From Gekko japonicus (taxonomy: Eukaryota): 64,000 nt of DNA. The position numbers and the translations under genes are program-made. Position 1 is the stretch's first letter. The number at the start of each line of letters is the position of its first letter. The stretch is taken from positions 392,939 to 456,938 of the forward strand of contig NW_015170904.1 in the NCBI RefSeq assembly GCF_001447785.1. The letters are read 5' to 3'. Positions 3,150 to 56,929 of the stretch are shown here, one piece after another. The notes beneath the pieces were generated by a model. It had not been told where the DNA came from and ran no database searches. It saw only the letters and a program-made list of their open reading frames with translations.

Positions 3150-3604
3150 TCTACCTATACCTTGTGGCTAATAGCCACTGATGGACCTCTGCTCCATATG
3201 CTTATCTAATTCCCTCTTGAAGCCGTCCATGCTTGTAGCCGCCACCACCTCCTGTGGCAGTGAATTCCATGTGTTAATCACTCTTTGGGTGAAGAAGTAC
3301 TTCCTTTTATTCGTTCTAACCCGACTGCTCAGCAATTTCATTGAGTGCCCACAAGTTCTTGTATTGTGAGAAAGGGAGAAAAGTACCTCTTTCTCTACCT
3401 GCTCTTTCTCATGCATACTCTTATAAACCTCAATCATGTCACCCATCGGCCGTTGTTTCTCCAAACTAAAGAGCCCCAAGCGTCTTAACCTTTCTTCATA
3501 GGGAAAGTGTTCAAACCCTTTTATCATTCTAGTTGTCCTTTTCTGCATTTTTCCCAGTGCTATAATATCCTTTTTGAGGTGTGGTGACCAGAACTATACA
3601 CAGT
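3150..3604 (-). mobile_element. CR1 LINE ORF2 C-terminal fragment
   Basis: ORF 3168-3548: YEERLRRLGLFSLEK...GDMIEVYK...RKYFFTQRVINTWNSLP, a typical CR1 ORF2 end; closely similar to 56290-56693. Confidence 0.92.
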
Positions 3605-16640: not shown

Positions 16641-17250
16641 TGCACATTTAACTTATTAAAAAATCTAGGTTTGCCATAGAGGGTTGTTAACAGAAAAGGC
16701 CCTGGTTCTTGTAAAACCACCTAGTATTCACAAGAGTTATTTGCAGCAGGACCATGTTAAATGATACCAGATTTGGGGAACAATATGTGTTTTTTTGTTG
16801 GAGGTGGGGCTCCATGTAGTTGGTACAGAGTATTGTGCCAGAACAGTATGCATATGTGTATTTACGCATATGATAGGGAACGATCCCAGAATATAGAGTT
16901 ATTTCTGATTTTTAAAACTGTTTTGCATTTCCTGAGTGATTCCCCCACCTTAGGATGCATTTCTCTTTTTTATGAAGGTAGGTGATTTTGCTTTCTCCCA
17001 CAGATCGTAAGGGCTTTGAAACTGGAGACCACCAATGGTGGTGAACTGTGCTGCTGTAATGGATACAATTTTTAGTGCTTCTCCAGAGGAAAGTGTGAAT
17101 TTATCAGGCAATTTTATATTAGGCATCCTTTGGATCTCACTAGATACATTAGTGGCAGTGTAATTTCAACACATCTGGGGCATTATTGGTGGATGGTGAT
17201 ATGGTACTAGTATGTCCTGTGCACTAATAGATTTGGTAGAGGAAACCATG

Positions 17251-17455
17251 CAATGCTTCCTCTAAGCTGTGCAATCTGGTGAGCAAAATATCTACTTGTG
17301 AGCTACTGGCATTAAAGTTGTGAGTGAGCAATTTGGCTACTGCATAAATTAGTTTGCTCTGGAGCCATCCTTCCTGAGCTAAGACAAAAATCTGTGAGCT
17401 GAAGGCTAAAAAACTGTGAGCTAGCTCACACTAACTCAGCTTAGAGGGAACACTA
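17251..17455. mobile_element. hAT MITE (copy without cargo of the family at 55777-56175)
   Basis: TIRs caatgcttcctctaagct / agcttagagggaacacta; colinear with 55777-55979. Confidence 0.85.
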
Positions 17456-18751
17456 GTTGTATATGCTGCTAACTTTCAGATGAGAGGGTTCACAGTGAAG
17501 TCCTGAACAGAATTACACCCTTCTAAGGTCGTTAGAGGCCATGGGCTTAGAAGGGCATAACTGTGTTTAGGACTGCGCTGTTAAAATGGCTGCCAACAAG
17601 CAGGTTATGTTCTAGTTTATACCATTGTGTATATACAAGAAGCTGCCAGGAAATGCTTTCGTGAAAGCGGCAGTATGCCTGTGAATAGTTTGAAAGTTCT
17701 TTTTTAGTCTTTAATTTTATGGCACAAACAAATGTAGAAAATCTGCTGACTATTGAGGTAATTCCCTTTGTGTCTGTTTGTTTCTTGAATGCCCATAGAG
17801 TAGCAATTAATGCCTAGAATCAGGCATTTTGCCACTGATCTTGAGTGTACCTGTTTTCTTATACCTGCACTTAGAAAATCTGAGCATCCCTTAGAGGATT
17901 CATATTTTTCACACTGATGTTAATTTCAGTAGGAGATTTACCTGTTTTAATGAGGAACAAACACAGATATAGAAGAAATGAAAGCTTGCTTCCTAATACT
18001 GATACCTCCTCTGTACGGGAGAACTCTGTGTATTGTTGATACGGGGAGAAAAATCACTTTTTCCTCTTTTGATGAGATGTAGAAATGTGGAAAGGGGAGA
18101 AGGCCATTCACTCACGCTTCTTCTCTTGACACTTCCTAGTTCATGAATTACCCTTATGGGGCTGATGGCTTCTGGTGAAGGGGTCACACTTGGCTGATTT
18201 GCATGTATCAGGTCTTGGACATAATTCCTCTTATCTTCAATTAAAGGATCTCAAGTATTTGCAGGAAGACTTCTTTGTAAGATATAGAGGGATGCTGCCT
18301 ATTGGAGTAGATGGTACTGGTTTAGGTAGATCACTGGTCTGACTTTGTCATTTCCAGCTAGAAACTCAGTCTTTCATGTTTGTTTTGAATCCTGGATCTG
18401 TGATAATAATGCAACTCGATTAATATACTTTTGTATTAAGGGTCAACTCAGTGTAAAGGGGAGAGTGGAGAAAAGAAAGGTTCTGTTAAAAATCAGCAGG
18501 TTGAATGATTTTTGCAGCATATCCATCTTTAGGAATTAAAAACCGTACACAAAATCTTGATCACTAGTCCCTTGATCACTACAACTCAGAGTCACCCTGT
18601 GAAACTGATTGGCAGTAGATTCAAGACAAATGAAGTTCTGCATGGCATAGTGAGTAGATGACTTGTGGAACTCATTGCCATCAGATGTGGCAATGGCAAT
18701 TGACTTAGATGTATTTAAAACGGGGTTGAACAGATTTATGGAGGATACTAG

Positions 18752-53675: not shown

Positions 53676-55776
53676 ACTCAGATATGTGATAGAACTCACT
53701 GTTGAATTGCACATTATAACTTAGAAACAGAAAGTTTTAAAACAAAATAAGCAACTAGTATAAATTTTAGACATTCTCAGGACTGAATAATATTGTCTCT
53801 AGTAAAATGTTTTCACCTGGATATCATCTGAATCAGTGAAATGTCACCTTCTCAATTGTATAGACTGGATACAGGATCTTCCTCTGAACATTTTTTTTAA
53901 AAGTAGCAAGTGAATACATTGCCACTATTGTCTAGATAATTCACTGGATTTCCTTCAAATAACCATTTATAACATTTATAAAGCTATCTGATGTTATTAT
54001 ACTTAGAAAATAATGCAGTTTGAAAAAAGATGACACGTCATTCATATGTTCTTCTCAGCCTTAGTTTCCTGAGAATTACAACTGGTGACAAGGGTGTTGG
54101 GAGCCTGGCCTGGGGCAGTGCGGGCCGCACCATCAGAGTGTGGAACGAGTAAGGCAAGGGCACCAACTCAAGTAGCATAGTCAAGGTCCAGTCTAAGCAC
54201 AGAGTCAAGACCCGTCAGTAGTCTGGTCTGAGAGTCAGATAGTACAGTCAGGTCTGGAAGTCCAAGAGTTATCTACGAGCAGGTTCAAGGGTGAGATGAA
54301 GGCAGATTCAGGATATGCTGGTCATGCTTGCAGCCAGCTGCTTGAGAGTAAACCTGCAGCTACTCATCTTTGCTATAAGCAAGCAGCTGGCATCAGGCAA
54401 GGAGATGTGCACTTTGTTGCCTCTCCTGTAGCTCTATTCTTAGTGTCCATCTGCAGATTCTATGGGTGTGGGTGATACTGGAGGACTAGAGACAACCAAT
54501 GGACTCTCTCCTGTTGGATGGGGGCTGGAGGGTGTTGGTGGCTCTGCACCAGTTGTTGACTGTGAACCCTGACAAGCCTGCAGCTCATCTTCCTGCTTGC
54601 GAGCTTCTGCTGGTTCAGAGCTGGTTACACGGGGCTCCTCTTCTCCTGAGTAGGTTGGGAGGACATTGTAAACACAGGATGAGGTGATGAAGTGAAAAGA
54701 GACAATTAAGTAAAATCACCTCCTCGTCCTCCTCCTTACAGGACTTCCCGCTCATAATTATGCATTTATTTGTCATTTATTTGTGACCTTCAAATCCTGT
54801 CCTTCTGGCGAGCTCAGGATCAGCATACTTGACGCCATTTTCCTCCCTTCAGTTATGTGGACTTCTGTGCCTCAGTCAACTAAGGATGCCCACTGTATGG
54901 ATTTAGTTGAGGCATATCGTTTTTCTAAATTGTGGCCATAGACAGTTGCATACAACACTAAAGCATTAAATTATGGTAAAATTGGTGGTTCACTACATAA
55001 ACTTTCACAGTGAACAAATTTTGAGTCCAGTGGCACCTTTAAGAGAGGGCAGGAAGGGTTGCATCCGTGCTTAGTTCTTGAGGCAGACTCAGCATGGGTT
55101 CTGTAAGGAAAGATCTTGTCTCTCTAACCTGTTAGTGTTCTTTGAAGGGGTGAACAAACATGTGGACAAGAGCGTCCCAATAGATGTTGTTTACCTTGAC
55201 TTCCAGAAAGCTTTTGATAAAGTTCCTCATCAAAGGCTCCTAAGTAAGCTCAATAGTCATGGGATAAAAGGACAAGACCCCTTGTTGATAAAAAACTGGC
55301 TAATCAATAGGAAACAGAGAGGGAGTATAAATGGGCAAATTTCTCAGTGGAGGGTGGTAAGCAGTGGGGTACCACAGGGATCATACTCAGTCCAATGCTT
55401 TTTAACTTGTTCATTAATGATTTGGAGTTGGGAGTAAGCAGTGAAGTGGCTAAATTTGTGGATGACACTAAATTGTTCAGGGTGGTGAGAACCAGAGAGG
55501 ATTGTGAGGCACTCCAAAGGGATCTGTCGAGGATGGGTGAGTGGTTGGTAATGTGGCAAATTGGGTTCAGTGTGGCCAAGTGCAAAGTGATGCACATTGG
55601 GACCAAAAATCCCAATATCCAAACTGTCAGAGACTGACCAAGAGAGAGATCTTGGAGTCATAGTAAATAACTCACTGAAAATGTCGAAACAGTGTGCGAC
55701 TGCAATAAAAAAAGGCTAACACTATACTGGGGATTATTAGGAAGGGAACTGAAAACAAATCAGCCAGTATCATAAT

Positions 55777-56175
55777 CAAAGCTCCCTCTAAGCTGTGGAG
55801 TCTTGTGAGCAAAAATTCTACTTCGTGAGATACTGGCATTAAGGTTGTGAGTGAGCGATTTGGCTGCTGCATAAATTAGTTTTCTCTAGAGCCATCCTTC
55901 CTGAGCTAAGACAAAAGCGTGTGTGAGCCAGAGGCTAAAAAAACTGTGAGCTAGCTCACACTAACTCAGCTTAGAGGGAGCCCATTGTCACCCCATTGAT
56001 CACCATGGTTGATTCATCTGATCTGGCTTGCTAGGCGGGTGTCCACTACCTCCCTCACCGCTCCATGTGCGTCCCTCCCAAAGCTGCGCGCTCGGTGGAA
56101 GAGGATGACCATCCCAGATAGAAGGAGTGTACCGTTCTTTGGTCAAGGGTATAAGATAGCTTAGAGGGAACTCTG
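55777..56175. mobile_element. hAT MITE carrying a 7SK fragment
   Basis: TIRs caaagctccctctaagct / agcttagagggaactctg; perfect 8-bp TSD atcataat (55769-55776, 56176-56183). Confidence 0.9.
55983..56161 (+). pseudogene. RN7SK: 7SK snRNA pseudogene fragment (roughly nt 30-200)
   Basis: tgtcaccccattgatc...ctaggcgggtgtcc...cctccctcaccgctccatgtgcgtccctccc...gctgcgcgctcggt...ggtcaagggtata matches vertebrate 7SK as I recall it. Confidence 0.92.
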
Positions 56176-56929
56176 ATCATAATGCCCCTATATAAATCGA
56201 TGGTGCAACCTCATTTGAAATACTGTGTGCAATTCTGGTCACCACACCTCAGAAAGGATTTTATAGCATTGGGGAAAAAGGGCAGAAAAGGGCAGCTAGA
56301 ATGATAAAAGGGTTGGAACACTTTCCCTATGAAGAAAGGTTAAAGCTCTTGGGGCACTTTAGCTTGGAGAAACGACAGCTGTAGGGTGACATGATCGAGG
56401 TACTTACTTCTATTTATTAGCTTCTATGACCAAAGGTGTACAAGATTATGCATGGGATAGAGCAGGTAGAGAAAGAAGTACTTTTCTCCCTTTCTCACAA
56501 TACAAGAACTCGTGGGCACTCAATGAAATTGCTGAGCAGTCAGGTTAGAACGGATAAATGGAAGTACTTCACTCAAAGAGTGATTAACACATGGAATTCA
56601 CTGCCACAGGAGGTGGCGGCGGCTACAAGCATGGACAGCTTCAAGAGGAAATTGGATAAACATAGGGAGCAGAGGTCAATCAGTGGCTATTAGCCGCTCT
56701 CAGTCTGGGGCAAGTGATGCACTGTATTCTTGGTGCTTGGGGGGGGGCAACAGTGGGAGGGCTTCTACTGTCCTCGCCCCACTGGTGGACCTCCTGATGG
56801 CACCTGGTAATTTTGGCCACTGTGTGACAGGAGTGTTGGACTGGATGGGCCATTGGCCTGATCCAACATTGGCTTCTCTTATGTTTTCGTGTTCTTATGG
56901 CCCTTTATTACACACCAAGGGAGATGCTG

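What the first reader, a model, noticed from the sequence alone, without database searches (positions are those of the whole stretch)
55777..56183. 7SK RNA fragment embedded in the TIR of a structurally intact hAT MITE
Seen: about 180 nt of 7SK, truncated at both ends and lacking polyA, flanked by a 12-bp duplication agcttagaggga (55968-55979, 56158-56169) that is part of the TIR; the 3' junction shares agct with 7SK. The duplication regenerates a full right TIR, and the 8-bp TSD brackets MITE plus 7SK. The copy at 17251-17455 has no insert. Known: 7SK regulates P-TEFb via HEXIM, and tailless retropseudogenes arise by microhomology-primed reverse transcription. Inference: either a one-off retroinsertion or a DNA-transposon subfamily that mobilises 7SK sequence.
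Basis: partly seen in the sequence, partly recalled or inferred. Interest (0 to 1): 0.7.

Follow-up and report, generated by a model that had tools for sequence, protein, structure and literature searches.

The report
Dead 7SK copy inside common transposon
A single, decayed fragment of the 7SK RNA gene sits in the end of one copy of a very common small DNA transposon, likely pasted there by chance by a retrotransposon's enzyme; it occurs once in this genome assembly, so it is an ordinary nested insertion, not a transposon family that carries 7SK.

Summary
A 176-nt piece of 7SK (nt 30-205; Rfam RF00100, 107.8 bits) with no A-tail lies between two perfect 12-bp repeats inside the right terminal inverted repeat of a 206-bp hAT-type MITE. 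An 8-bp duplication brackets the whole, inside a decayed LINE. The MITE's right-end motif occurs 122,774 times (about 1% of the genome) and a 7SK core motif 229 times. Chance alone predicts 2-5 7SK copies inside MITEs and 0.4-1 inside a TIR. Of 111 other 7SK copies examined, all stop short of the 331-nt end, 50 have 9-19-bp duplications, and three end at the same nt 205 at unrelated sites. Best reading: one tailless-type 7SK retrocopy made by target-primed reverse transcription with 4-nt priming, landing in a MITE already in place. The right TIR is rebuilt at 17 of 19 positions but is moved 190 bp away from its subterminal repeats. Ordinary; low interest.

The parts
55075..55776 (+). Decayed non-LTR retrotransposon (LINE) reverse transcriptase region, 5' of the MITE. 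CR1-type by recalled motifs; no call names the clade.
   Evidence: Pfam RVT_1 at 55075-55434 (44.9 bits) and 55311-55634 (32.9 bits), cut-off 29.6; frameshifts and stops
55769..55776 (+). hAT-type 8-bp target site duplication, left copy (ATCATAAT, fits nTnnnnAn)
   Evidence: the left and right flanks are contiguous in other LINE copies in L045 and L133
55777..55795 (+). Left TIR of the MITE (18 of 19 to the family majority)
55777..55979 (+). Body of the 206-bp non-autonomous hAT-type MITE, with five TGTGAG motifs and one inverted copy (positions counted on the family majority) as likely subterminal repeats
   Evidence: 89-94% to other copies; 9 of 206 mismatches to the majority when read without the insert; motifs
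55968..55979 (+). Retrotransposition target site duplication, first copy (inner part of the right TIR)
55980..55985 (+). 6-nt filler at the 5' junction; CCCATTG (55981-55987) repeats 11 nt downstream in the 7SK part (55992-55998)
   Evidence: sequence; the other 7SK copies read differently just 5' of this point
55986..56161 (+). 7SK RNA fragment, nt 30-205, sense strand, no tail; the last 4 nt (AGCT, 56158-56161) are shared with the target
   Evidence: Rfam RF00100; 10 of 176 mismatches to the local 7SK majority
56158..56169 (+). Retrotransposition target site duplication, second copy
56158..56175 (+). Outer right TIR as now present (17 of 19 to the family majority right TIR when 56157 is counted)
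56176..56183 (+). hAT-type 8-bp target site duplication, right copy
56184..56360 (+). Continuation of the decayed LINE reverse transcriptase region
   Evidence: 88% to window 3468-3604; contiguous with the left flank in L045 and L133
17251..17455 (+). Comparison copy of the same MITE without insert and without a clear TSD

Best explanation
This is a single-copy, tailless 7SK fragment inside the right TIR of one copy of a very abundant hAT-type MITE, likely inserted once by a LINE's target-primed reverse transcription after the MITE had landed in an old LINE. Shown: the nesting (LINE, then MITE with 8-bp TSD, then 7SK piece with 12-bp TSD), the 4-nt overlap at the 3' junction, and single copy number. 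Inferred steps: (1) the MITE transposed into the LINE and made ATCATAAT twice. (2) A LINE endonuclease nicked the bottom strand just before AGCT in the right TIR; the freed 3' end ending in AGCT paired with 7SK nt 202-205 and primed cDNA synthesis. (3) Synthesis stopped 29 nt short of the 5' end and the junction was closed with a 6-nt filler, probably copied from the nearby CCCATTG. (4) A top-strand nick 12 bp on gave the duplication, which is why the TIR looks rebuilt. (5) The locus then decayed neutrally. It is predicted to have no function and never to have spread.
For: Single copy of both junctions. No other composite among the 40 scored of 537 candidates, nor among 111 other distinct 7SK loci examined: 0 inside a MITE, 1 starting 12 nt beyond a MITE end with a different junction. 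A genome-wide exact pattern of TIR core plus 7SK 5' start within 30 nt finds only that neighbour. Abundance: 122,774 MITE right-end matches, 229 7SK core matches, so 2.3-5.5 7SK copies are expected in MITEs and 0.43-1.0 in TIRs. The locus has the anatomy of its siblings: 50 of 111 have exact duplications of 9 bp or more (median 13; 33 of 50 are 11-15 bp); 32 of 111 end at nt 193-206; L022, L099 and L153 end at nt 205 at unrelated sites, L099 with the same AGCT overlap; 16 of 50 have overlaps of 3 nt or more against 5.2% in a no-priming simulation. The class, including 139 human 7SK cases and tailless copies in the anole lizard, is described in PMC5322556 (passages). Empty-site contiguity of the LINE. 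Perfect 8-bp TSDs in 20 of 29 other MITE copies, T at position 2 in 15 of 20 and A at position 7 in 14 of 20, as for Hermes (PMC10368747, passages).
Against: The copy is atypical at its 5' end: 96 of 111 siblings start within 6 nt of the 7SK 5' end and only 10 of 111 start at nt 15 or later; this one lacks 29 nt and has a filler, so it would fail the '5'-complete' filter of PMC5322556. The target (TC/AGCTTAG) does not fit that paper's TT/WAAAAWW consensus. The order of events is not dated: the 7SK part differs by 10 of 176 (5 are CpG transitions) and the MITE by 9 of 206, which cannot be told apart. The same sequence would result if the insertion had happened in a donor copy that then moved here once. 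The mobilising LINE was not identified. The chance estimate assumes uniform insertion, MITEs older than the 7SK copies, and 206 bp per end match. 111 loci were examined of at least 229, chosen by similarity.
Confidence: 0.92

Rival explanations
1. The 7SK piece was inserted into a MITE copy elsewhere, and the composite then moved here once by cut-and-paste, using the rebuilt outer TIR.
For: The 8-bp TSD brackets MITE plus 7SK and the outer TIR is 17 of 19 intact; divergence of the two parts is similar.
Against: The bracket is what any insertion inside a resident MITE gives. There is no second copy. The outer TIR is 190 bp from the nearest subterminal motif, and several hAT elements need ends well beyond the TIR (PMC10368747, passages). 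Chance nesting needs no extra step.
Confidence: 0.04
2. 7SK cDNA was patched into a break at the transposon end (transposase nick or gap repair) rather than at a LINE endonuclease nick.
For: The site is inside a TIR. The 5' junction is truncated and carries a filler that may be templated; 55967-55987 also resembles the inverted left TIR with two extra C.
Against: The duplication ends 6 bp inside the element, not at the tip where the transposase cuts. Its length (12 bp), the nt-205 end point and the 4-nt overlap are typical of the genome's other 7SK copies at unrelated sites. No excess of 7SK at TIRs was seen.
Confidence: 0.03
3. A multi-copy hAT subfamily carries 7SK sequence.
For: None beyond the structure of this one locus.
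Against: Junction patterns with 2-3 mismatches allowed find only this locus. By contrast, a related MITE nested in a larger hAT-domain repeat shows shared flanks in several loci at once, which is what co-amplified nesting looks like here.
Confidence: 0.01

Closest known systems
Tailless retropseudogenes of 7SK (Noll et al. 2015, PMC5322556; passages read)
   Same: 3'-truncated Pol III RNA copy, no oligo(A), TSD in the 8-35 nt range, short complementarity (2-18 nt) between target and RNA at the 3' end, shared truncation points among independent copies.
   Different: 5'-truncated by 29 nt with a 6-nt filler; target not A-rich; the paper's 7SK cases are human, and its cross-species figure (including the lizard) counts 5S rRNA and U2; the driving LINE here is unknown.
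Non-autonomous hAT MITEs; Hermes as the studied model (PMC10368747; passages read)
   Same: Short imperfect TIRs (19 bp; 17 bp in Hermes), 8-bp TSD with nTnnnnAn preference, repeated subterminal motifs.
   Different: No transposase gene; cognate autonomous element not found; family name not determined (no repeat library available).
SINEs with RNA-gene heads (e.g. the platypus snoRNA-RTE element mentioned in PMC5322556)
   Same: A small-RNA-derived sequence spread by LINE machinery.
   Different: Here no composite master gene amplified: the 7SK copies end at many different positions with no shared tail, and the MITE-7SK junctions are single-copy.

Membership tests
Tailless retropseudogene | Derived from a cellular RNA | tested here: met
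   Rfam RF00100 107.8 bits; 166 of 176 identical to the local 7SK majority
Tailless retropseudogene | 3'-truncated by at least 10 nt, no oligo(A) tail | tested here: met
   ends at nt 205 of a 331-position model; the TSD follows directly
Tailless retropseudogene | Flanked by an 8-35-nt TSD | tested here: met
   12 of 12 identical; the empty site is known from 29 other MITE copies
Tailless retropseudogene | Target complementary to the last 2-18 nt of the RNA copy | tested here: met
   4 nt, AGCT; 4 nt or more arises in 1.5% of no-priming simulations
Tailless retropseudogene ('perfect' subset of PMC5322556) | 5' end complete within 5 nt (the paper's search filter; it also lists 5'-truncated tailless copies) | tested here: not met
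   starts at nt 30 after a 6-nt filler; so not filed in the 'perfect' subset
Tailless retropseudogene ('perfect' subset of PMC5322556) | Target consensus TT/WAAAAWW | tested here: not met
   target reads TC/AGCTTAG
Tailless retropseudogene | Mobilised by L1 | not tested
   no search for the driving LINE was run
hAT-type MITE | Short TIRs, no coding capacity, high copy number | tested here: met
   19-bp imperfect TIRs, 206 bp, 122,774 right-end matches
hAT-type MITE | 8-bp TSD, nTnnnnAn preference | tested here: met
   perfect in 20 of 29 other copies; T2 in 15 of 20, A7 in 14 of 20
hAT-type MITE | Cognate hAT transposase element with the same ends | tested here: inconclusive
   hAT dimerisation domains are plentiful (150 scored of 1509 candidates), but in the 30 loci fetched the MITE-like matches were whole MITEs, fragments or nested copies; none was shown to be the end of a transposase element
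7SK-carrying transposon subfamily | Same junctions at several loci with different 8-bp TSDs | tested here: not met
7SK-derived SINE | Many copies with a shared 3' end or tail | tested here: not met
   3' ends of 111 copies scatter from nt 90 to 292 with unrelated flanks

The most novel reading that the evidence does not exclude
The 12-bp duplication rebuilt a working transposon end, and the MITE carrying two-thirds of 7SK was cut and pasted to this site at least once as a unit: a DNA transposon moving a Pol III RNA gene fragment, caught before or without amplification.
Probability: 0.04. Interest if true: 0.35.

Novelty: new member of a known kind. Interest (0 to 1): 0.08.

Why it matters
As it stands it matters little: it is one of hundreds of dead 7SK copies, and with the MITE at about 1% of the genome a few are expected to land in it. 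It is a neat teaching case, because the exact empty site is known from the MITE family and the priming geometry can be read base by base. Had the composite been multi-copy, it would have shown a cut-and-paste element spreading an RNA-gene fragment; that is not seen. The wider side result, a large set of tailless 7SK retrocopies in a genome rich in LINEs and hAT elements, could help to identify which LINE makes such copies, but that is a property of the genome and not of this locus.

Tried and rejected
Co-transposition: rejected by junction patterns, follow-up of the two weak 3' hits L062 and L063 (no 7SK, no MITE) and the composite DNA search. TIR hot spot for 7SK: the gapped pattern found only L155 (= L132), where 7SK starts 12 nt outside a MITE end; this tests only 5'-complete copies placed after a TIR and exact matches. 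A MITE subfamily with the same change at position 4 of both TIRs: 0 exact matches. Autonomous partner: not found among the 30 best of 150 scored hAT-domain loci. Dating by divergence: uninformative. Public sequencing runs: 24 listed, none with half of the sampled words (best 0.46); no read or contig alignment was obtained, so they are no evidence, and whether an allele without 7SK exists is left open. The Pfam scan of the short right flank gave only a weak, irrelevant match below cut-off. Literature: (5 papers, 3 listed) gave the tailless class; some searches listed 2, 1 and 2 papers, none by title or abstract start on a 7SK-carrying DNA transposon or on this MITE; (7SK, retropseudogene, squamate) gave 0. 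These searches cover only the held library, and supplements of PMC5322556 were not opened. The scan's earlier findings held nothing. My automated TSD caller takes only exact repeats near the ends, so 50 of 111 is a lower bound; a stricter subset of 36 'clean' junctions (16 with overlap of 3 or more) is biased towards overlap and the full 50 is the count used.

Full report
Observation. The window shows ATCATAAT at 55769-55776, a MITE from 55777, AGCTTAGAGGGA at 55968-55979, six letters GCCCAT, a 7SK-like stretch, AGCTTAGAGGGA again at 56158-56169, ACTCTG, and ATCATAAT at 56176-56183. Rfam scores the stretch as 7SK at 107.8 bits, E 5.8e-29, the only match up to E 1 in 55400-56600. Against a majority sequence of 29 other 7SK loci it covers nt 30-205 with 10 mismatches in 176, five of them CpG transitions, and its last four letters are also the first four of the duplication. 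The window's other copy of the MITE (17251-17455) is 89% identical and has no insert.

The host element. A search of G000 with the MITE body gave 4504 candidates, 40 scored. Twenty-nine other copies give a 206-bp majority that begins CAATGCTCCCTCTAAGCTG and ends CAGCTTAGAGGGAACACTG; 20 of the 29 have a perfect 8-bp TSD and three more have 1-2 mismatches. In the 20 TSDs, T is at position 2 in 15 and A at position 7 in 14, the nTnnnnAn preference given for the hAT element Hermes (PMC10368747, passages). A 25-letter right-end pattern with up to 2 mismatches has 122,774 matches and the reversed control has none; at 206 bp each that is 1.0% of the assembly, though the count may include related families and partial copies. 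hAT dimerisation domains are common in the genome, but the cognate autonomous element was not found in the 30 loci fetched. The MITE interrupts a decayed LINE: Pfam RVT_1 matches 55075-55434 and 55311-55634, and the left and right flanks are contiguous in the LINE copies of L045 and L133. That it is CR1-type is my recall of its motifs, not a call result. The genome is a vertebrate's by its 7SK and repeats; a reptile is my guess and was not tested.

Co-transposition test. The 5' junction pattern with up to 3 mismatches has one match, this locus. The 3' junction pattern with up to 2 mismatches has three: this locus and two 2-mismatch hits, against one hit of the reversed control; neither extra locus holds 7SK or MITE sequence. 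In the DNA search with the composite, only this locus matches all 234 bases; the other 39 scored hits of 537 candidates match within query 35-216, and the 29 I read have unrelated flanks. An exact pattern of TIR core plus 7SK 5' start within 30 nt finds one other place, where 7SK begins 12 nt outside a MITE end. The subfamily reading is refuted for this assembly, gaps and withheld stretches aside.

Chance. A 27-letter 7SK core pattern with up to 2 mismatches has 229 matches. With 229 to 537 copies, uniform insertion predicts 2.3-5.5 inside MITEs and 0.43-1.0 inside a TIR. Among 111 other distinct 7SK loci (120 records, duplicates and the own locus dropped), none lies inside a MITE and one lies next to one. 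One case in 112 is what 1% coverage predicts.

The siblings. Of the 111 copies, 96 start within 6 nt of the 7SK 5' end and 10 start at nt 15 or later. BLAST ends run from nt 90 to 267, with one at the end of my 292-nt reference; 32 end at nt 193-206 and 34 at nt 229-246. Fifty have an exact duplication of 9 bp or more (median 13). Sixteen of the 50 share 3 or more letters between the RNA end and the target, against 5.2% in a simulation without priming. Three (L022, L099, L153) end at nt 205 like this locus, and L099 uses the same AGCT. The sample was chosen by similarity to nt 30-205 or a core at nt 61-87, so it is not a census. This is the anatomy of tailless retropseudogenes in PMC5322556 (passages read): 3' truncation, no oligo(A), 8-35-nt TSD, 2-18 nt of target complementarity; 139 human 7SK cases; tailless copies also seen in the green anole.

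Mechanism. Shown are the nesting, the two duplications, the overlap and the single copy. Inferred from established target-primed reverse transcription: a bottom-strand nick just before AGCT leaves a 3' end that pairs with 7SK nt 202-205; cDNA is made towards the 5' end; a second nick 12 bp on duplicates AGCTTAGAGGGA. Because the duplicated letters lie in the TIR, the TIR appears twice. The outer copy matches the family's right TIR at 17 of 19, but it now lies 190 bp from the TGTGAG subterminal motifs, and several hAT elements need sequence well beyond the TIR, so mobility is likely reduced. That was not tested. The 5' end is the only unusual part: 29 nt are missing and a 6-nt filler is present. 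CCCATTG in the filler region recurs 11 nt downstream, which suggests a templated filler; it can also be read as the inverted left TIR with two extra C. I cannot choose between these.

What stays open. The order of events is inferred from parsimony, since divergence of the two parts (10 of 176 and 9 of 206) does not separate them. No allele or orthologue without 7SK was seen; the run search listed 24 runs with at best 0.46 of the words and no alignment of them was obtained. The driving LINE is unknown, and the target does not fit the TT/WAAAAWW consensus of PMC5322556.

Novelty and verdict. Searches of the held library (listings only, apart from the two papers cited) showed no report of a 7SK-carrying DNA transposon, and none is needed here. 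The finding is a new instance of a known kind: a 5'-truncated, tailless-type 7SK retrocopy nested by chance in a high-copy hAT-type MITE. Interest 0.08.

Noticed in passing
G000 genome-wide; L002-L030, L065-L154: At least 229 7SK retrocopies. Of 111 examined, 96 are 5'-complete, all stop short of the 331-nt end, 3' ends cluster near nt 193-206 and 229-246, and TSDs are mostly 11-15 bp with short priming overlaps. PMC5322556 counted 5S and U2 across species; one search found no paper on 7SK retropseudogenes in squamates. The driving LINE is unknown.
   Followed up: partly
L163, L165, L171, L172, L178, L184 and L179, L180 (e.g. L171:2193-2383): A relative of the MITE (about 69-79% to the majority, with an insertion in its left TIR) lies near hAT dimerisation-domain sequence in 8 of the 30 best hAT loci, with shared flanks (two flank variants; L184 ends in N). 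It looks like a MITE nested in a larger hAT element and amplified with it.
   Followed up: partly
L132 = L155 (G000:C12879:390536-390580): An independent 5'-complete 7SK copy (nt 1-238) starts 12 nt beyond the right end of a full MITE, with its own 9-bp duplication outside the MITE.
   Followed up: yes
window 55780 and 56172: Both TIRs of this copy carry the same change at position 4 relative to the majority. The left variant is also in 3 of 29 other copies; no plain MITE with both variants was found by an exact pattern. Probably coincidence.
   Followed up: partly
window 17243-17463: The comparison MITE copy has a changed last base and no recognisable 8-bp TSD.
   Followed up: no
L004 and L005 (G000:C12294:94826-95001 and 89180-89355): The same 7SK insertion with the same TSD and flanks twice, 5.6 kb apart: a local duplication or an assembly artefact.
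   Followed up: no
L016 (G000:C4473, just 5' of the 7SK copy): The 7SK copy is preceded by sequence that looks like a reversed U6 snRNA piece (recalled resemblance, not tested), and the 3' flank repeats sequence from before it: possibly a U6-7SK chimeric retrocopy.
   Followed up: no
L024 and L028: 7SK copies with rearranged 5' parts: a short internal repeat in L024; in L028 about 36 nt of other sequence between a 7SK 5' start and the rest.
   Followed up: no
L185: A cluster of several whole and partial MITE copies in both orientations within 1 kb.
   Followed up: no
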